This document shows, in pieces, positions 51,230 to 62,889 of a stretch of 64,000 nt of DNA; the first letter of the stretch is position 1, and the number at the start of each line of letters is the position of its first letter. Under the pieces are notes generated by a model. That model worked only from the letters and a program-made list of their open reading frames with translations. It ran no database searches and was not told the DNA's origin. The stretch covers positions 152,286-216,285 of IMG/VR virus record IMGVR_UViG_3300032167_000002, one strand, 5' to 3'. The DNA is from a virus. Lineage: Duplodnaviria; Heunggongvirae; Uroviricota; Caudoviricetes. The translations under genes and the position numbers were made by a program.

Positions 51230-51260
51230 CCACCGCATTCCGCGGGATAATGGTGGATAC
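51230..51260 (-). ncRNA. tRNA 3' minihelix fragment (T-arm plus 3' acceptor plus CCA) with no matching 5' half
   Basis: CGAGG TTCGAGT CCTCG AGTATCC A CCA. No GGATACT partner upstream. Confidence 0.4.
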
Positions 51261-51424
51261 TCGAGGACTCGAACCTCGCTTTTTTCATGTAGCCTTCTGG
51301 AGAGACCCCATCCACGCTACACCGGTTTCGCGCACGCAAGGCGACAGTGGGCGTTTATCTCCACATCGCAGTTTTTACTTCCGTACTACTTACATTACTT
51401 ATCCTCCCTGTGAGGAGCTACCCT

Positions 51425-51500
51425 GGTGCCCGTTGGGGGATTCGAACCCTCGACACCCTGATTAAGAGTCAGGTGCTCTGACCAGCTGAGCTAAACGGGC
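51425..51500 (-). tRNA. tRNA-Lys (CTT)
   Basis: GCCCGTT TA GCTC AGCTGGTC AGAGC A CCTGA CTCTTAA TCAGG ... AACGGGC A CCA. Confidence 0.75.
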
Positions 51501-51672
51501 GTGGTATATTATCGTAGATAATTGTAATGTTATGCTCTTGGCAATATCCTTTCCAACAACGATAACATCTTTGCTCTCTTTCTATTGGCTCATAGCAAGT
51601 TGTTGCCACAGTGCATAAACATATTGTAGGGCATCTATGATTATCAATTTCCTTGTCAATATTGATTTCCAT
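51469..51672 (-). CDS. Small Cys-rich protein (3' end uncertain; the track ORF runs into tRNA-Lys)
   Basis: CPTICLC...CYRCWKGYC. Confidence 0.3.
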   Translation of the reverse strand: MEINIDKEIDNHRCPTICLCTVATTCYEPIEREQRCYRCWKGYCQEHNITIIYDNIPRPFSSAGQST

Positions 51673-51702
51673 AGGATTTTCCCCTTTCTTTATCTTACAT
51701 AT

Positions 51703-51733
51703 ATATTATAACATATTTTTTTATAAAAATCAA
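51703..51733 (-). promoter_or_regulatory. Stereotyped sigma-70 promoter (-35 TTGATT, 17-nt spacer, extended -10 TGATATAAT) reading leftward
   Basis: + strand tatatattataacatatttttttataaaaatcaa, the reverse complement of TTGATTTTTATAAAAAAATATGTTATAATATATA. Confidence 0.6.
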
Positions 51734-51950
51734 ATAAAATAAAAAACAGCGAATAAGGCTAATCTTTGGACTTAGGTCGGATCTGATTTCCAGATATCCG
51801 ATTGCCACTTAGTTCCAACTGTAAAACCTTATTCGCACCCCATAGGGCGGTCTCGAGGAATTTCTCCCAGTGCACTAAGGCGAGACCGGTCGAGCAATAA
51901 TGACTTGGTGCGCCGCCTGGGATTCGAACCCAGGACACCCGCCTTTTTCA

Positions 51951-52419
51951 GTCATTCGATGAAAGTATCTTCAAGTTTGAAATCTTTTGCGAAATTGATA
52001 TTCTTAGTCTGACCATTCTTTGTAGGCTTTAAACGCAATCTACAAGAACGACTACCAGCTTTATCAACTGGAACAAGATAGCACTGATGATTATGCATTG
52101 TAGCAAAATAATCAATGTCATCCGCAGAATAAGATTGATATACTGTCTTTTGAGTATTTGTATGAGAGGATTGAGTCTTAAACTCAATATAATCTTCATC
52201 TTCACTCAATGATGATGTCTTTACTTGAATACGATATAACTGATGGTTGATATCAACGATAAAGTCATAGCGACTATCAGATACCAAAGGCTTACACACT
52301 TGATACCCCAATGTCAAAAACGATTCGGCAACTTGGAGTTCAGTAATTTCACCTTGGAAATGAGTGTTTAACACTTAATTCACCTCCTGGGAAAATACTT
52401 TCTTCTCCTGTGTGAAAAG
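51951..52419 (-). mobile_element. Intron-like insertion in the tRNA anticodon loop carrying a homing-endonuclease-type ORF
   Basis: Lies between the two exon halves. The ORF stop TGA sits 8 nt before the 3' exon. Reminiscent of tRNA group I introns with PD-(D/E)XK endonucleases such as I-Ssp6803I. Confidence 0.5.
51952..52374 (-). CDS. PD-(D/E)XK-type putative homing endonuclease inside the split tRNA
   Basis: GTG start with SD AGGAGGTG. SRYDFIVDINHQLYRIQVK core. Paralogous to 56793..57200. Confidence 0.55.
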   Translation of the reverse strand: MLNTHFQGEITELQVAESFLTLGYQVCKPLVSDSRYDFIVDINHQLYRIQVKTSSLSEDEDYIEFKTQSSHTNTQKTVYQSYSADDIDYFATMHNHQCYLVPVDKAGSRSCRLRLKPTKNGQTKNINFAKDFKLEDTFIE

Positions 52420-52469
52420 GGCGGTGCTCTGAAACCTGCTGAGCTAGCGGCGCATATGAAGGGAAAAGT

Positions 52470-52496
52470 GGGATGGGCCTTTTGTTGACCCATCCC
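52470..52496 (-). terminator. Hairpin GGGATGGGCCTTTTGTTGACCCATCCC upstream of the split tRNA
   Basis: Stem-loop seen in the sequence. Confidence 0.4.
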
Positions 52497-52943
52497 GCAA
52501 GACATAAGATGTTTCTAAAAAGATCATTCTCTATGTTTGTTTGTCAAATATTGAGTATTATCATTTTGAAAATTTTGCTGTATATGTCTTGTATAAATAC
52601 TCTCCTTTGGTGGTAACTTTCATTTATGCGATGATGAGTGTCGAGAGCCTCATCACATCTACTACTGATTATCACATTCCCGGAGAGCCGAAAGTTTTTT
52701 TAGTAAAACCATTCTTCTTTCTATCATTTAAAAACGCGACTGTTAAGTCATCATAGAAGCTACTTGAAGTAGCGATCTGTACTATTAAGTACAAGCTGGT
52801 TTGCTGTATGGCTCTCAGTGTTTCTATAAATAATTACTTTTCCGTCGAGGCCACCTGTTAATAACGGAATTTGCGAGCTAGCCCTCCTCGAGCTTCTATC
52901 CGCAATAGACGGACCAGTATCAACACCTGGCGAATTATTTATA

Positions 52944-53018
52944 TGGAGCGGGTAAGGGGAATCGAACCCCTCTATCCTGCTTGGAAGGCAGGCGCACTAG
53001 CCGATGTACTACACCCGC
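52944..53018 (-). tRNA. tRNA-Gly (TCC)
   Basis: GCGGGTG TA GTAC ATCGGCTA GTGC GCCTGC CTTCCAA GCAGG ... CACCCGC T CCA. Confidence 0.75.
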
Positions 53019-53105
53019 AAAGAATGGGGCACTCCGAGGAATGCCCCCGAGAAGATAGGAACTTTAAAGAAAGGGGAGAAGATTTTTTCTTTATTTCCTG
53101 TACTA

Positions 53106-53136
53106 TTATTATACCAAAAAATTTTTGAAAAATCAA
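53106..53136 (-). promoter_or_regulatory. Stereotyped sigma-70 promoter reading toward tRNA-Gly
   Basis: + strand tattattataccaaaaaatttttgaaaaatcaa. Confidence 0.55.
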
Positions 53137-53137
53137 C

Positions 53138-53434
53138 TCATTTTCTAATGAACCAACGACGATATTCTTGATATGCTTCTTCGCGATCGGGAAATTCGGA
53201 ATATCTCCAATCCCACTCGTACCATCTTTTGACGAGACTCTCCCAATATTGCTCGAAAGAAGTGCCGACTGTTTCATAGTCGCAAATATCATATTGGCAA
53301 AACACCTTTTTGTATGTATTACCTTTAGGATGCTCGTCGATGGGAAGACGGCGCACTTTGCGATTAGCATATCTTTTAAAGAATTTGTCTTTTGTATCAC
53401 CCGAGCGAGGGGTGTGTTTGAATGATCTACTCAT
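53138..53434 (-). CDS. Hypothetical basic protein
   Basis: 98-aa track ORF, co-transcribed with tRNA-Leu. Confidence 0.35.
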   Translation of the reverse strand: MSRSFKHTPRSGDTKDKFFKRYANRKVRRLPIDEHPKGNTYKKVFCQYDICDYETVGTSFEQYWESLVKRWYEWDWRYSEFPDREEAYQEYRRWFIRK

Positions 53435-61580: not shown

Positions 61581-61738
61581 TTATTCAAGGCTCAAGCTTT
61601 TACTAAAGAAGCGGGAATCCAACCCGCGATTTTTCCGTGGAAGGGAAATGTCCTAGCATTAGACTATTCTTCTAAGCGAAGTTTGCTGTAAGAGCCTTTA
61701 GTATGAGAAACTATATCCGATAGTTCCTTTACTTGTAT

Positions 61739-61769
61739 ATATATTATAACAAATTTTTTGAAAATTGTC
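61739..61769 (-). promoter_or_regulatory. Stereotyped promoter variant (-35 TTGACA)
   Basis: + strand attataacaaattttttgaaaattgtcaa. Confidence 0.5.
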
Positions 61770-61886
61770 AAATTGTCGTTATGGGCCACCTCAACCATAA
61801 CAACGAGCCCACCTTATTCCGATCCTATTGGGCCCATCCCCGTATTCGGATTAGCGGTCATCCGCAGAGGTTCCGAAAGACCTCGA

Positions 61887-61963
61887 TGGTACGGGTTGAG
61901 GGACTCGAACCCCCGGCCTACTGGTTCGTAGCCAGTTACTCTATCCAACTGAGCTAAACCCGC
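61887..61963 (-). tRNA. tRNA-Arg (ACG)
   Basis: GCGGGTT TA GCTC AGTTGGAT AGAGT A ACTGG CTACGAA CCAGT ... AACCCGT A CCA. Confidence 0.75.
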
Positions 61964-61984
61964 ATATGGTGCGGTTTTCCGCAC

Positions 61985-62221
61985 TTAGGAATTTGCGTAT
62001 TTCTGTAAAAAAGCAGAGAACTTATCAGCATTAGCGTGGTCGCCAACAACGATATTGACATCCTTGCCTAAAATGGTAAATAAACCAAGCAGGCTTCGAG
62101 CATCAAGCTGACCATATGAGGTACTGATGTAAATAGGGAAATCTTCCTTACTTGCCAATTCGCTAAAACGGAATAAATCCTCTTGAGTTTCAAACTTTAC
62201 AGGCTGAATCACAAAACTCAC
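61985..62221 (-). CDS. Hypothetical protein
   Basis: 78-aa track ORF. Confidence 0.3.
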   Translation of the reverse strand: MSFVIQPVKFETQEDLFRFSELASKEDFPIYISTSYGQLDARSLLGLFTILGKDVNIVVGDHANADKFSAFLQKYANS

Positions 62222-62235
62222 CCCTTTTCATCTAT

Positions 62236-62313
62236 TGGTACCCCAGAAGGGACTCGAACCCCTGACACTGGGATTAGAAATCCCATGCTCTATCCAACTG
62301 AGCTACTGGGGCG
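62236..62313 (-). tRNA. tRNA-Arg (TCT)
   Basis: GCCCCAG TA GCTC AGTTGGAT AGAGC A TGGGA TTTCTAA TCCCA ... CTGGGGT A CCA. Confidence 0.75.
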
Positions 62314-62402
62314 TAAAAAAACTAGACAGAATTACATTAAACATTTCTTAAACCCAATATAAGCGTTTTGTGTAAAAAGTAATTTGCTGTGTCTGTCTAA
62401 TA

Positions 62403-62480
62403 TGGGGTGAGTGAGCGGACTTGAACCGCCGATCTCCAGAGCCACAATCTGGCGCTTTAACCAACTAAGCTACACTCACA
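62403..62480 (-). tRNA. tRNA-His (GTG) with C73 but no genomically encoded G-1
   Basis: GTGAGTG TA GCTT AGTTGGTT AAAGC G CCAGA TTGTGGC TCTGG ... CACTCAC C CCA. The nucleotide at -1 is the terminal A of the upstream tRNA-Gly CCA. Confidence 0.75.
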
Positions 62481-62556
62481 TGGAGCGGCTGACGGGGTTC
62501 GAACCCGCGACCTTCTGAATGGCAATCAGATGCTCTACCAGCTGAGCCACAGCCGC
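62481..62556 (-). tRNA. tRNA-Gly (GCC)
   Basis: GCGGCTG TG GCTC AGCTGGT AGAGC A TCTGA TTGCCAT TCAGA ... CAGCCGC T CCA. Abuts tRNA-His. Confidence 0.75.
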
Positions 62557-62692
62557 ATATGGTATCTCCGTAGCCAGCGCAGGTCCAGTGCGCTTGTGCC
62601 TCACCCAATATGCACCTCCACCCAAATTTCCGGGCATCTACAGTGTGGGAACTTTTTATCTATGTTGGCAAATGGAACCAACTACGGAGAGT

Positions 62693-62768
62693 GGTGCGGG
62701 ATAACGGATTCGAACCGCTGACCCCATGCTTGTAAGGCATATGCTCTAACCAGCTGAGCTAATCCCGC
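62693..62768 (-). tRNA. tRNA-Val (TAC)
   Basis: GCGGGAT TA GCTC AGCTGGTT AGAGC A TATGC CTTACAA GCATG ... ATCCCGC A CCA. Confidence 0.75.
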
Positions 62769-62845
62769 ATATATCATAGTGATTGAGTAGCTAATTCTTT
62801 CACTATGACACTCTATATAGATTTTGTGCGTGTATACCGCACTCG

Positions 62846-62889
62846 ATGCAGTTTGTGGGGCTCGAACCCACTCGGACCATCAACTGCAT
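62846..62889 (-). ncRNA. tRNA-like minihelix: an 8-bp stem (ATGCAGTT/AACTGCAT) enclosing a T-arm hairpin GTGGG TTCGAGC CCCAC
   Basis: Seen in the sequence. No D or anticodon arms and no CCA. Confidence 0.35.

What the first reader, a model, noticed from the sequence alone, without database searches (positions are those of the whole stretch)
51230..62889. Recurrent tRNA 3' minihelix fragments and a conserved 16-nt leader motif in the tRNA array
Besides the intact tRNAs there are at least seven orphan elements consisting of a T-arm plus acceptor 3' strand, with or without CCA: 51230-51260, 53955-53995 (with a separate 5'-half fragment at 53921-53950), 55633-55648, 57535-57593, 60184-60212, 61093-61118 and 62846-62889. 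None has a complementary 5' acceptor strand nearby. Several sit 20-45 nt downstream of a conserved motif (minus strand GGCWSACACAGCAAW; + strand copies at 52571, 53665, 54011, 58413, 60228, 61137, 61680, 62382), and most copies of that motif lie just downstream of a promoter -10, in the transcript leader. The fragments could be decay products of homing or recombination. They could also be functional, for example as RNase P or RNase Z processing mimics, CCA-adding substrates, decoys for host anticodon nucleases, or halves of trans-assembled tRNAs. The leader motif looks specific to tRNA-operon transcripts.
Basis: seen in the sequence. Interest (0 to 1): 0.55.

Follow-up and report, generated by a model that had tools for sequence, protein, structure and literature searches.

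The report
Phage Y-RNA-like tRNA mimics
The "orphan tRNA pieces" and the "leader motif" are two parts of the same small RNAs: Y-RNA-like molecules, several carrying a rearranged tRNA look-alike, that sit next to genes for a previously uncharacterised relative of the Ro60 RNA-quality-control protein in phages and gut bacteria.

Summary
The minus-strand motif (…AAGGC-NN..-ACAGCAA) is the 5' strand of a 7-9 bp helix. Its 3' strand (…NN-GCCUU-G) lies 40-130 nt downstream, and the helix closes a discrete small RNA. The window has nine such "handle" RNAs, one with a degenerate motif, and one with the handle inverted inside a tRNA-like anticodon loop. Five of the seven "orphan" fragments lie inside these RNAs. 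Three of them are complete, circularly permuted tRNA-like domains: V hairpin, T arm, acceptor stem closed by a loop, then D arm, with or without an anticodon arm. This is the architecture of bacterial YrlA Y RNAs, and Rfam YrlA gives weak full-length hits. The helices covary across relatives. The handle is tightly linked, on the same strand, to DUF2828/DUF7788 genes: 49/80 viral and 65/80 genome loci fetched by protein alone carry it. The predicted structure of that protein matches Ro60 over its full length. In three bacterial isolate loci the gene sits beside RtcB. My reading is a new Y RNA/Ro60 variant with ACAGCAA in place of the CGAA motif. Two fragments (51251-51279, 62846-62889) have no handle. 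They are acceptor/T-arm mini-structures next to drum-like RNAs.

The parts
62323..62399 (-). Handle RNA E9. Helix UAGACAGA/UCUGUCUA, then ACAGCAA, then a 52-nt simple insert. It starts 3 nt after tRNA-His and ends 10 nt before tRNA-Arg(UCU).
   Evidence: (MFE recovers the helix, z -2.5); orthologs in L027, L206-L208
61587..61698 (-). Handle RNA E8. Helix AAGGCUC/GAGCCUU plus ACAGCAA enclosing a normal-order, non-canonical tRNA-Gly(UCC)-like body (61602-61675, T loop UUGGAUU). It ends 6 nt before tRNA-Ile.
   Evidence: orthologs in L027, L206, L207 keep UCC
61020..61156 (-). Handle RNA E7 (holds reader fragment 61093-61118). Helix UAGGCACA/UGUGCCUA, ACAGCAA, V hairpin, T arm, acceptor stem closed by the loop ACUC, D arm, and an anticodon arm CUUGU-CUCCAAA-ACAAG (CCA).
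   Evidence: z -3.2; 12 of 28 pairs with compensatory change in 6 orthologs; anticodon CCA/GUA/GAU/GAA/GCA/GCA
60138..60246 (-). Handle RNA E6 (holds reader fragment 60184-60212). YrlA-type: helix AAGGCAC/GUGCCUU, ACAGCAA, V hairpin, T arm, 7-8 bp acceptor hairpin with GCCA in its loop, D arm. It ends 6 nt before tRNA-Gln(UUG).
   Evidence: Rfam YrlA model 1-114, 26.4 bits; z -4.95, 0/200 shuffles; compensatory changes in the V, T, acceptor and D stems
58363..58429 (-). Handle RNA E5. Helix AAGGCAG/CUGCCUU plus ACAGCAA and a 42-nt insert. It is promoter-proximal and lies 68 nt upstream of ROOL.
57535..57673 (-). Reader fragment 57535-57593 with its own 5' half: a type-II tRNA-like RNA with normal termini and an ACCA end. 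The handle is inverted here. It forms a hairpin (UAGUGUCUU-loop-AAGCCGCUA) followed by ACAGCAA (57600-57630) in the anticodon loop, 5' of CAGUAAA. The RNA starts 8 nt after ROOL.
   Evidence: orthologs in L090, L206-L208; Rfam tRNA model hits the ortholog L090 4435-4570 at 33 bits and similar about 120-nt cases in L015, L029 and L047; the window MFE is no better than shuffles
55613..55707 (-). Handle RNA with a degenerate motif (holds reader fragment 55633-55648). Helix AAGACCCUU/AAGGGUCUU, CCUGCAA instead of ACAGCAA, and an insert with only a T-arm-like hairpin GCGGUUCGAAUCCGC. It ends 8 nt before tRNA-Thr(UGU).
   Evidence: The orthologous position in L090/L121 carries an anticodon-stem-loop mimic (ACAAU-CUUUUAA-AUUGU) instead.
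53901..54029 (-). Handle RNA E4 (holds reader fragments 53955-53995 and 53921-53950). Helix AAGGCA/UGCCUU, ACAGCAA, T arm, acceptor 3' strand CGCCCCU-G-CCA, loop UAUA, acceptor 5' strand GGGGUCG, D arm. It ends 9 nt before the first CUA suppressor tRNA.
   Evidence: (Rfam YrlA 33.5 bits, local E 5e-6); the ortholog L027 1809-1916 scores 40.8 bits against the full YrlA model
53607..53682 (-). Handle RNA E3. A 9-bp helix AAGGCUCAU/AUGAGCCUU, ACAGCAA and a 51-nt insert with a small hairpin. It is promoter-proximal and ends 8 nt before tRNA-Leu(UAA).
   Evidence: (z -2.9)
52683..52816 (-). Handle RNA E1. Helix GAGAGCC/GGCUCUC plus ACAGCAA and a 109-nt multi-hairpin insert.
   Evidence: z -4.8; orthologs in L027, L090, L121, L206, L208
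52499..52590 (-). Handle RNA E2. Helix AAGACAUA/UAUGUCUU plus ACAGCAA and a 67-nt insert.
   Evidence: z -2.8
62846..62889 (-). Handle-less mini tRNA-like element (reader fragment 7): an 8-bp acceptor helix AUGCAGUU/AACUGCAU, a 10-nt linker and a T arm. It abuts the 3' end of the drum RNA (62889-62999).
   Evidence: It is absent from the relatives L027 and L206-L208, which also lack the drum RNA.
51251..51279 (-). Handle-less T arm + AGUAUCC + ACCA (reader fragment 1, shifted). It is the 3' end of a conserved 173-nt spacer RNA (51251-51423) and lies just 5' of a second, diverged drum-like RNA (51106-51240).
46506..47456 (-). Gene for the Ro60-like protein (Pfam DUF2828), same strand, about 5 kb downstream of the nearest handle RNA. 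This copy lacks residues about 271-456 (the vWA part) of its 501-aa homologs.

Best explanation
The T-arm/acceptor 'fragments' and the 'leader motif' belong to one family of small non-coding RNAs of about 65-140 nt, embedded in the phage tRNA array.

Anatomy. Each RNA is closed by a terminal helix of 7-9 bp. The 5' strand is [A/U]AG[G/A]C-NN(NN) and the 3' strand is (NN)NN-G[C/U]CU[U/A], followed by G. An unpaired ACAGCAA follows the 5' strand directly. Inside the helix sits a variable cargo: plain hairpins, a lone T-arm or anticodon-stem-loop mimic, a whole tRNA-like body, or a circularly permuted tRNA-like domain. The permuted domain runs V hairpin, T arm, 7-bp acceptor stem capped by a loop that contains N-CCA, D arm, and sometimes an anticodon arm. 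In one topological variant the handle is a hairpin placed in the anticodon loop of a tRNA-like RNA with normal ends. A helix in place of the anticodon stem plus a tRNA-like elbow is the architecture of bacterial YrlA-type Y RNAs.

Proposed mechanism.
- Shown: the helix and the permuted cloverleaf are maintained by compensatory changes. The handle is genetically linked, on the same strand and mostly upstream, to genes of the DUF2828/DUF7788 family. The predicted fold of that protein is that of Ro60 (HEAT-repeat TROVE ring plus vWA domain). In three bacterial isolate loci the same gene-RNA pair sits beside RtcB RNA ligase, in two of them also near a WYL-domain protein, like the Salmonella rsr-yrlBA-rtcBA operon.
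- Inferred: the RNAs are co-transcribed with the tRNAs and freed by ordinary tRNA 3' and 5' processing. This would leave a 6-10 nt 3' tail. The helix plus ACAGCAA is bound by the Ro60-like protein, playing the role of the GGUCCGA/GNCGAA helix of known Y RNAs. The tRNA-like cargo then acts as the second Y-RNA module. It would tether or gate the ring towards tRNA-handling factors in the phage's RNA-repair and anti-nuclease programme. The window also encodes an RNA ligase, a Thg1-like enzyme, cREC, RNase T, and vault- and band-7-like proteins.

The two handle-less elements (51251-51279 and 62846-62889) are not part of this family. I read them, with lower confidence, as tRNA-like punctuation that lets RNase P/Z define the ends of the adjacent drum-like RNAs.
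For: (1) Motif enrichment and strand bias: 23 copies against 9.6 expected, with 11 on the minus strand of the array.

(2) Closing helix. All 9 array copies outside ROOL and the inverted case have a helix of at least 7 bp, and 8 of 9 are followed by G. MFE folding recovers it in all ten handle RNAs. In 49 handles from 17 contigs, the two pairs not used to pick the partner are paired in 48/49 and 47/49 sequences, with AU/UA/GC/CG swaps. The covariation score is 0.40 against 0.13 in shuffles (0 of 500 reach it), and slid registers give 0.03-0.17. A permutation test of the inner pairs gives 2.25 against 1.57 +/- 0.08.

(3) Permuted tRNA-like domains. Rfam YrlA gives full-model or core hits at 60135-60246 and 53921-53990 and on orthologs, up to 40.8 bits. 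The RNAalifold consensus of six orthologs reproduces the V/T/acceptor/D (plus anticodon) stems, with 6 of 29 and 12 of 28 pairs carrying compensatory changes. Fold z-scores are -4.95 and -3.2.

(4) Gene linkage, tested in both directions. Loci fetched only by the 16-nt DNA motif contain DUF2828 genes next to the motif in 8 contigs with 28-64% protein identity. Loci fetched only by protein similarity contain strict handles on the gene strand in 49/80 viral and 65/80 genome loci: 111 same-strand against 1 opposite-strand, and 163 against 1. Of the viral handles, 107 are upstream and 3 downstream, and 104 of 111 are followed by G.

(5) Protein fold. An AF2 model of the 95%-identical full-length homolog has pLDDT 94. 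The top ten Foldseek PDB hits are all Ro60/TROVE proteins aligned over their full length (1yvr E 5.7e-9; 1yvp_A TM 0.62; phage phiRo60 9kop). vWA domains follow.

(6) Context. RtcB is adjacent in Ruminococcus flavefaciens ND2009, Brotocaccenecus and Faecalimonas umbilicata, and WYL-domain proteins are adjacent in Faecalimonas and Butyrivibrio.

(7) Contrast case. The sister phage L205 has a Pfam-TROVE protein followed by two YrlA-like RNAs with CGA(A)-type motifs and no ACAGCAA handle.

(8) Precedent. Phage Ro60 homologs with upstream Y-RNA-like genes are known (PMC4201824, PMC12135203).
Against: - No binding, expression or processing data exist. The RNA-protein pairing rests on gene neighbourhood alone.
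- The Rfam YrlA scores (26-41 bits) are far below the gathering score of 69, and the defining GNCGAA motif is absent.
- About 60% of 359 distinct handles carry no recognisable tRNA part, so 'tRNA mimic' describes only part of the family.
- In this window the nearest handle is about 5 kb from the gene, with a methylase and a GmrSD-like gene between them.
- The gene copy in the window lacks the vWA domain that closes the Ro60 ring. The same variant occurs on 9 contigs, but it may bind RNA differently or not at all.
- 31 of 80 viral DUF2828 loci show no strict handle within 4 kb.
- The outer five pairs of the helix were used to find the partner, so only the inner pairs are an unbiased test.
- The inverted-handle tRNA-like RNA and fragment 1 fold no better than shuffled sequence (z +0.6 and +0.9).
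Confidence: 0.65

Rival explanations
1. The elements are permuted or intron-containing pre-tRNAs. The handle would be a splice signal, functionally like the archaeal/eukaryal bulge-helix-bulge motif. An endonuclease would cut at it, RtcB or the phage RNA ligase would join the ends, and RNase P/Z would then open the acceptor loop to give working tRNAs.
For: - The acceptor stems have 7 bp with N-CCA conserved in the capping loop.
- E7-type RNAs have intact anticodon arms with a CU-NNN-AA loop.
- The handle sits inside the anticodon loop in the 57535-57673 type, and Rfam's tRNA model scores such cases at 33-53 bits.
- An RtcB or RNA ligase gene lies nearby.
Against: - Most handles enclose no tRNA parts.
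- E4- and E6-type RNAs have no anticodon arm at all.
- The junction lies at different tRNA positions in different elements: the variable region, 26/27, and 31/32.
- The anticodons duplicate those of ordinary tRNAs in the same arrays and change between close orthologs (CCA/GUA/GAU/GAA/GCA), which is not expected of decoding tRNAs.
- No cleavage enzyme for such a signal is known in bacteria.
Confidence: 0.12
2. The handle is a general processing or stability element of polycistronic tRNA transcripts, for example a nuclease site or a leader-trailer clamp. It would be unrelated to the Ro60-like protein, and the tRNA-like inserts would be incidental.
For: - Handles fill tRNA-tRNA spacers. They start 0-6 nt after a tRNA 3' end or after a promoter and end 5-10 nt before the next tRNA.
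- E8 and the L069/L107/L206-L208 cases clamp the leader and trailer of a normal-order tRNA.
Against: - The same handle occurs in tandem directly upstream of DUF2828 genes where ARAGORN finds no tRNA gene (L015) and in bacterial chromosomal RtcB loci (L254, L286).
- The same-strand to opposite-strand ratios of 111:1 and 163:1 next to that gene are hard to explain without a functional link.
Confidence: 0.1
3. The fragments are decayed tRNA remnants left by recombination, homing-endonuclease activity or integration.
For: - The array does contain a tRNA-Lys(UUU) split by a PD-(D/E)XK ORF that is intact in relatives.
- Relatives show orphan T loops right after other PDDEXK_5 ORFs.
- The cargo differs at orthologous positions (T arm against anticodon-loop mimic), which shows turnover.
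Against: The listed fragments are conserved in position and structure, with compensatory changes, in six relatives. They have their partner strands in cis and share a defined closing helix.
Confidence: 0.05
4. The short inverted repeats are DNA-level features, such as terminal inverted repeats of miniature mobile cassettes or recombination sites.
For: The cargo between the repeats is exchangeable, and the copies are numerous and dispersed.
Against: - The orientation is strictly that of the transcription unit.
- The conserved asymmetric ACAGCAA lies on one side only.
- G-U pairs occur in some helices, for example AAGGCACAU/AUGUGUCUU in L027.
- No target-site duplications or transposase genes were seen.
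Confidence: 0.03

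Closest known systems
YrlA-type bacterial Y RNAs with Ro60/Rsr (Rfam RF02553; Chen et al. 2014, PMC4201824)
   Same: - A terminal 5'-3' helix with a conserved 5'-side motif.
- A tRNA-like domain in the order V, T arm, closed acceptor stem, D arm.
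- Genes on the same strand as, and near, the gene of a ring-shaped TROVE+vWA protein.
- An RtcB neighbourhood in bacteria.
- Seven-bp acceptor hairpins, like the M. smegmatis YrlA that is cut by RNase P and CCA-extended.
   Different: - The motif is ACAGCAA, not GNCGAA(N)G.
- Scores are 26-41 bits against the gathering score of 69.
- The protein belongs to Pfam DUF2828/DUF7788, with no significant sequence match to TROVE. Similarity is seen only at the level of the fold.
- There are many copies per genome, 11 in this window.
- The cargo is modular and often not tRNA-like.
- Circularly permuted topologies exist.
- Some copies carry a full anticodon arm whose triplet varies between orthologs.
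Thermus phage phiLo phiRo60 with Yrl1/Yrl2 (PMC12135203; PDB 9KOP), and Ro60/YrlA of mycobacteriophages, CcrColossus and Bacillus phage G
   Same: A phage-encoded Ro60 homolog with Y-RNA-like genes upstream. 9KOP is among the top structural matches of the DUF2828 model.
   Different: Those RNAs were identified by the CGAA motif in a stem-bulge-stem structure. They are not reported as parts of tRNA arrays or as carrying swapped tRNA parts.
Circularly permuted tRNA genes of Cyanidioschyzon merolae and other algae/archaea (my own knowledge, not checked here)
   Same: The 3' half (T arm, acceptor 3' strand, CCA region) precedes the 5' half (acceptor 5' strand, D arm), and a helix is formed by the transcript ends.
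   Different: Those genes yield decoding tRNAs through the BHB endonuclease and a ligase. Here there is no BHB motif, several members lack an anticodon arm, and no evidence for ligation was found.
tRNA-like 3'-end processing elements (mascRNA of MALAT1/MEN-beta; tRNA punctuation of mitochondrial transcripts; my own knowledge)
   Same: The two handle-less elements (62846-62889 and 51251-51279), and the tRNA-like RNA that starts 8 nt after ROOL, sit exactly at the ends of structured RNAs (drum, drum-like, ROOL). RNase P/Z cleavage there would define those ends.
   Different: This was not tested here. The Rfam mascRNA model gives no relevant hit. Drum RNAs elsewhere end in terminators (PMC5737381).

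Membership tests
YrlA / bacterial Y RNA (RF02553) | Reaches the Rfam gathering score (69 bits) | tested here: not met
   26.4 and 33.5 bits in the window. The best ortholog reaches 40.8 bits. A TROVE-linked phage pair in L205 also scores only 35 bits.
YrlA / bacterial Y RNA (RF02553) | Conserved 5' motif GNCGAA(N0-1)G, the Ro60 recognition element (PMC4201824) | tested here: not met
   The invariant motif is ACAGCAA, with variants CCUGCAA and UCCGCAA. CGA(A)-type motifs are seen only in the TROVE-linked RNAs of L205.
YrlA / bacterial Y RNA (RF02553) | tRNA-like domain: V, T, closed acceptor (AS) and D stem-loops in that order, inside a 5'-3' helix | tested here: met
   Met for 60138-60246, 53901-54029 and 61020-61156. 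Not met for the simple handles E1, E2, E3, E5 and E9.
YrlA / bacterial Y RNA (RF02553) | Encoded within a few kb of, and on the same strand as, a Ro60 ortholog | tested here: met
   Family-wide, 111:1 and 163:1 same-strand against opposite-strand, and 62 of 107 upstream copies lie within 1.5 kb. In the window the gene is on the same strand, 5-15 kb from the handles.
YrlA / bacterial Y RNA (RF02553) | Bound by Ro60/Rsr in vivo; carries tRNA modifications | not testable with these tools
   Needs RIP/CLIP and modification mapping.
Ro60 / TROVE protein family | Pfam TROVE (PF05731) sequence match | tested here: not met
   Only PF11443 DUF2828 and PF25043 DUF7788 match. phmmer against PDB finds nothing. 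hhalign against the L205 TROVE protein gives E 0.034.
Ro60 / TROVE protein family | HEAT-repeat ring plus C-terminal vWA/MIDAS domain (the Ro60 fold) | tested here: met
   AF2 model with pLDDT 94. The top ten PDB matches are Ro60 aligned over full length, E down to 5.7e-9 and TM up to 0.62. The DxSGS motif is conserved. The model is of the full-length homolog P0003; the window copy lacks the vWA part.
tRNA genes (functional, decoding) | Contiguous cloverleaf detected by ARAGORN or Rfam RF00005 | tested here: not met
   None of the seven fragments is called a tRNA. Only the cargo of E8 (61602-61675) is called tRNA-Gly(UCC).
tmRNA (considered for 51251-51423) | tRNA-like domain plus tag reading frame, detected by ARAGORN or Rfam | tested here: not met
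   No tmRNA call. Only the G3-U70-like pair and the ACCA end are suggestive.
Group I intron in tRNA (considered for the split tRNA-Lys) | Ribozyme core detectable; enough non-ORF sequence | tested here: not met
   No Rfam intron hit at E <= 5. Only about 50 nt lie outside the 423-nt ORF.

The most novel reading that the evidence does not exclude
The handle RNAs are a display library. A Ro60-like ring, through one universal handle (helix + ACAGCAA), carries interchangeable tRNA parts: T arm/acceptor elbows and anticodon stem-loops. The anticodon triplets turn over quickly between close relatives: CCA/GUA/GAU/GAA/GCA at one orthologous site, GGU/GAU/GUU at another, and GUA/UAA at a third. The display would bait, titrate or hand over to repair enzymes (RtcB, RNA ligase, Thg1-like) the anticodon-specific nucleases that hosts use against phage. 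This would make it an RNA-based counter-defence, and it would give the long-unexplained tRNA-like domain of bacterial Y RNAs a function.
Probability: 0.2. Interest if true: 0.85.

Novelty: new variant of a known kind. Interest (0 to 1): 0.68.

Why it matters
- Function for an unknown family. DUF2828/DUF7788 has at least 6,600 clusters at 50% identity and occurs in jumbo phages, Bacillota, other bacteria and at least one Asgard MAG. No functional study of DUF2828 was found in the library searched. This work assigns it a probable function and an RNA partner.
- Y RNA/Ro60 biology. The result extends the system to a second recognition motif and to multi-copy, modular RNAs.
- Genome annotation. Recurrent "orphan tRNA halves" in phage tRNA arrays can now be explained. 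They would otherwise be annotated as pseudogenes or missed.
- An open question becomes testable. What the tRNA-like module of bacterial Y RNAs is for has been unclear since 2014. Nature supplies here a series of cargo swaps, circular permutations and anticodon changes on a constant handle. Cultured carriers are available: Ruminococcus flavefaciens ND2009, Butyrivibrio sp. MC2021 and Faecalimonas umbilicata DSM 103426.

Tried and rejected
- Megablast of 57-64 kb against GenBank phages found no match.
- An IMG/VR search with the 101-aa array ORF found no relatives.
- The first IMG/VR motif scan was dominated by chance single hits. Only loci with several copies, tRNAs or a DUF2828 gene were used. 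One multi-copy locus (L065) was a coding repeat and was dropped.
- phmmer of the DUF2828 protein against PDB sequences found nothing. Two literature searches for DUF2828 found no functional paper.
- A tmRNA reading of 51251-51423 is not supported by ARAGORN or Rfam. The fold z-score is only -0.97. Homologs exist only in relatives at least 97% identical, so no covariation test is possible.
- A group I intron reading of the split tRNA-Lys was rejected: there is no model hit and no room for the ribozyme core.
- Fragment 7 with the drum RNA has no counterpart in the syntenic relatives examined, so its conservation is untested.
- I considered ribozyme classes (hammerhead, HDV-like/theta, twister and others) for the handle. 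No Rfam hit at E <= 5 supports any of them, and I did not recognise their core sequences in it.
- The lenient helix search (G-U allowed, 300-nt range) also finds helices at 4 of 10 plus-strand ACAGCAA sites by chance. The linkage tests therefore used a perfect 7-nt complement.

Full report
**Setting.**
The minus strand of 50.3-64 kb is a phage tRNA array. ARAGORN finds 24 tRNAs, including two CUA suppressors. The array also holds a ROOL RNA (57682-58295), a drum RNA (62889-62999) and a partial OLE-model hit. The rest of the window looks like a jumbo phage. It encodes gyrase, NAD-dependent ligase, a sigma-70 factor and NAD-salvage enzymes. It also has a conspicuous RNA-repair set: RNA ligase, Thg1-like enzyme, RNase T, a cREC receiver, vault-MVP-like and band-7 proteins, and a DUF2828 protein at 46506-47456. 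GenBank phages hold no close relative.

**Check of the observation.**
- Eight T-loop matches lie outside called tRNAs. The eighth (51920) is the 3' half of a tRNA-Lys(UUU) split by an ORF.
- ACAGCAA occurs 23 times against 9.6 expected, with 11 copies clustered on the minus strand of the array. The eight listed copies are all there, with three more.
- The claim that no fragment has a complementary 5' acceptor strand is wrong. In three fragments the 5' strand follows the 3' strand after a short loop. In one it lies about 90 nt upstream.
- Consensus promoters precede only about half of the motif copies.

**What the motif is.**
On the minus strand, the bases just 5' of ACAGCAA pair with a stretch 40-130 nt downstream that ends in ...GCCUU-G. 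Examples are AAGGCUCAU/AUGAGCCUU, AAGGCAC/GUGCCUU, AAGGCAG/CUGCCUU, UAGGCACA/UGUGCCUA, UAGACAGA/UCUGUCUA, AAGACAUA/UAUGUCUU and GAGAGCC/GGCUCUC.
- MFE folding recovers this helix in all ten handle RNAs tested (nine canonical, one with a degenerate motif), mostly with z-scores between -2.5 and -5.
- A scan of IMG/VR for AAGGCNNACACAGCAA returned mostly chance hits. It also returned several tRNA-array contigs with 3-10 copies each. L027 and L090 among them are syntenic relatives of the window. ENA contigs L121 and L206-L208 added four more relatives.
- I aligned 49 handles from 17 contigs. The partner was chosen only by the five outer pairs. The next two pairs are formed in 48/49 and 47/49 sequences, with AU, UA, GC and CG all represented.
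- The covariation score is 0.40 against 0.13 in shuffles (0 of 500 reach it). Slid registers give 0.03-0.17.
- ACAGCAA itself, the AG...C of the 5' strand and the G...U of the 3' strand are invariant.
- Handles begin 0-6 nt after the preceding tRNA or just after a promoter, and end 5-10 nt before the next tRNA. Ordinary tRNA processing would therefore release them as discrete RNAs with a paired 5'/3' end and a short 3' tail. This last step is an inference.

**What the fragments are.**
- *Fragments inside handle RNAs.* Five of the seven lie inside handle RNAs. In 60138-60246 the predicted fold is helix, ACAGCAA, V hairpin, T arm, 8-bp acceptor hairpin with GCCA in the loop, D arm, and back to the helix (z -4.95).
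  - Rfam's YrlA model aligns to it end to end at 26 bits, and to the core of 53901-54029 at 33.5 bits. Orthologs reach 40.8 bits. All are below the gathering score of 69.
  - Six orthologs of 60138-60246 keep every stem, with compensatory changes in the V, T, acceptor and D stems.
  - 61020-61156 has the same plan plus a complete anticodon arm. In six orthologs, 12 of 28 pairs show compensatory change.
  - 55613-55707 has a degenerate motif (CCUGCAA) and only a T-arm-like hairpin.
- *Varying anticodons.* In the 61020-61156 family the stem and the CU...AA loop flanks are kept, but the triplet differs: CCA, GUA, GAU, GAA, GCA, GCA. All five are anticodons that ordinary tRNAs carry in one or more of these related arrays.
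- *The inverted handle.* 57535-57673 is a tRNA-like RNA with normal ends whose handle is a hairpin in the anticodon loop. Relatives have the same arrangement. Rfam's tRNA model scores such roughly 120-nt cases at 33-53 bits. Topologically this is a circular permutation of the same object: a tRNA elbow with the handle where the anticodon stem would continue.
- *A normal-order case.* One handle (61587-61698) encloses a normal-order, non-canonical tRNA-Gly(UCC).
- *The wider family.* Among 359 distinct strict handles from all loci, 23% carry a T loop and 8% a D arm, against 3-4% in controls. Many carry a lone anticodon-stem-loop mimic, and about 60% carry nothing tRNA-like. The cargo differs even at orthologous positions.

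**The partner.**
- *Motif to gene.* A tblastn with a 501-aa homolog of the window's DUF2828 protein found that gene directly beside the motif in eight unrelated contigs among the loci fetched only by the DNA motif. Handles often stand in tandem just upstream, and ARAGORN finds no tRNA gene in L015.
- *Gene to motif.* The reverse test used 80 IMG/VR loci and 80 genome loci fetched only by protein similarity (38-77% identity), and a strict definition: ACAGCAA plus a perfect 7-nt complement within 280 nt.
  - 49/80 viral loci carry a handle on the gene strand: 111 same-strand against 1 opposite-strand, 107 upstream against 3 downstream, and 104 of 111 followed by G.
  - 65/80 genome loci carry one: 163 same-strand against 1 opposite-strand.
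- *Distribution.* Carriers include isolates (Ruminococcus flavefaciens ND2009, Butyrivibrio sp. MC2021, Faecalimonas umbilicata DSM 103426) and a Promethearchaeota MAG.
- *Sequence level.* Pfam knows the protein only as DUF2828 + DUF7788. Sequence searches against PDB and a profile comparison with a TROVE protein are not significant.
- *Fold level.* An AlphaFold2 model from a 98-sequence alignment has pLDDT 94. Its ten best PDB matches are all Ro60/TROVE proteins aligned over their whole length (E 5.7e-9 to 6e-6, TM up to 0.62). They include Thermus phage phiRo60. vWA domains follow.
- *Bacterial context.* The gene sits beside RtcB in R. flavefaciens ND2009, Brotocaccenecus and Faecalimonas umbilicata. 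WYL-domain proteins are adjacent in Faecalimonas and Butyrivibrio. This is the same company that Rsr and YrlA keep in Salmonella (PMC4201824, PMC7790460).
- *Contrast.* A sister phage (L205) has a Pfam-detectable TROVE protein followed by two YrlA-like RNAs with CGA(A)/GUCCGA-type motifs and no ACAGCAA handle. The two protein types thus appear to go with two RNA motifs.

**Interpretation.**
Helix covariation, permuted-cloverleaf covariation, two-way gene linkage and fold similarity point the same way. These are Y-RNA-like RNAs of a Ro60-like protein, a variant of a known system.
- Known Y RNAs have one module that binds Ro60 (a helix with a conserved 5'-strand motif) and a second module that gates or tethers. 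In YrlA the second module is a tRNA mimic that is modified by TruB and DusA. In M. smegmatis, where the acceptor stem has 7 bp, it is cut by RNase P and CCA-extended (PMC4201824).
- The phage RNAs have 7-bp acceptor hairpins with N-CCA already in the loop, so the same processing is plausible.
- Binding, processing and biological role are inferred, not shown. The role I favour is tethering or gating of the ring towards tRNA-handling or tRNA-cleaving factors during infection. The varying anticodons suggest decoy or bait functions. I put that at about 0.2.
- A caveat for this genome: its DUF2828 gene has an in-frame loss of the vWA region. Residues 2-270 and 457-500 are retained. The exact variant occurs on nine contigs, so it is probably real.

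**The two fragments outside the family.**
- 62846-62889 is an 8-bp acceptor helix plus T arm that directly abuts the 3' end of the drum RNA. Drum RNAs normally end in terminators (PMC5737381).
- 51251-51279 is the T arm + ACCA end of a 173-nt conserved spacer RNA, just 5' of a second, diverged drum-like RNA.
- ROOL is likewise followed after 8 nt by the tRNA-like 57535-57673.
- I read these as tRNA-like punctuation for RNase P/Z. Support is only positional, because suitable relatives were lacking.

**Rivals.**
- Splicing or ligation of permuted pre-tRNAs is not excluded (0.12). It is disfavoured by cargo-less handles, members without an anticodon arm, variable junction positions, and redundant, changing anticodons.
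- A generic processing element (0.10) does not explain the gene linkage where no tRNA gene is called.
- Decay (0.05) fits only the ORF-split tRNA-Lys.
- DNA-level inverted repeats (0.03) do not fit the strict strand bias and the one-sided motif.

**Novelty.**
Phage Ro60 homologs with Y-like RNAs are known (PMC4201824, PMC12135203). What appears to be undescribed:
- the DUF2828 branch as a Ro60 homolog;
- its ACAGCAA handle, which no Rfam 15 family hits, with no functional study of DUF2828 found in the library searched;
- the multi-copy arrangement inside tRNA arrays;
- the modular and circularly permuted cargo.

The literature library is incomplete, so prior description elsewhere cannot be excluded.

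Noticed in passing
window 51910-52449 (-): tRNA-Lys(UUU) is split in its anticodon loop by a roughly 460-nt insertion that carries a PD-(D/E)XK (PDDEXK_5) ORF (51952-52374). The 5' half is 52410-52449 and the 3' half is 51910-51950. The gene is intact in the relatives L121, L027, L090, L206 and L208. Only about 50 nt lie outside the ORF and there is no group I intron hit, so it is unclear how, or whether, the tRNA is restored. Relatives show other PDDEXK_5 ORFs followed at once by orphan T loops (L206 9285, 11452; L207 4291, 11278).
   Followed up: partly
window 51106-51240 (-) and 62889-62999 (-): There is a second, diverged drum-like RNA. It scores only 21 bits in Rfam but aligns with the bona fide drum RNA. 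Each of the two is flanked by a handle-less acceptor/T-arm mini-structure instead of the terminator usual for drum RNAs.
   Followed up: partly
window 51251-51423 (-): A 173-nt spacer RNA between tRNA-Lys(CUU) and the drum-like RNA ends in T arm + AGUAUCC + ACCA. Its 5' end GGGUA can pair with UAUCC, including a G3-U70-like wobble. This is tmRNA-like or alanine-acceptor-like at the ends only. It is 97-98% identical in close relatives and not found further afield.
   Followed up: partly
window 51749-51836 (-); L027 187-276; L090 10084-10167: A partial match to the OLE RNA model (positions about 437-594 of 616) scores 53 bits, just above Rfam's gathering score of 50. It is conserved downstream of tRNA-Lys(UUU) in three phages. 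It is probably a shared substructure and not an OLE RNA.
   Followed up: no
window 46506-47456 (-): The Ro60-like (DUF2828) gene has an in-frame internal deletion of the vWA/DUF7788 region (residues about 271-456 of the 501-aa homologs). The identical 316-aa variant is on 9 public contigs, the longest 406 kb.
   Followed up: partly
window 57673-58429 (-): ROOL RNA (57682-58295) is bracketed. A handle RNA ends 68 nt upstream of it, and a tRNA-like handle-bearing RNA starts 8 nt downstream. The same order is seen in L027 and L090. RNase P cleavage at the tRNA-like RNA would define the ROOL 3' end.
   Followed up: partly
window 53742-53891 (-): Two tandem amber-suppressor tRNAs (anticodon CUA) are present. 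In-frame TAG codons are rare in the ORFs of this early/middle-gene window, so any recoding would concern genes outside it.
   Followed up: partly
window 30734-33250, 17479-18987, 33993-35411, 38624-39514, 44813-45220 (-): The window encodes a major-vault-protein-like protein (MVP shoulder and repeat domains), a band-7/flotillin-like protein, an RNA ligase, a Thg1-like enzyme and a cyclic-phosphate-processing receiver (cREC) domain protein. Together with the Ro60-like gene, this co-occurrence suggests a larger RNA-repair module.
   Followed up: no
L205 12039-14060: A related phage array carries a Pfam-detectable TROVE protein followed by two YrlA-like RNAs (35 bits each) with GUCCGA/CUCGAA-type motifs and no ACAGCAA handle. 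This is the canonical counterpart of the system in the window.
   Followed up: partly
L237 (Promethearchaeota MAG TEKIR_8), about 2800-2990: A DUF2828 gene in an Asgard-archaeon MAG is preceded by an ACAGCAA handle (GAGGUGC/GCACCUC) that encloses a permuted tRNA-like domain. It could be a viral contig binned with the MAG.
   Followed up: no
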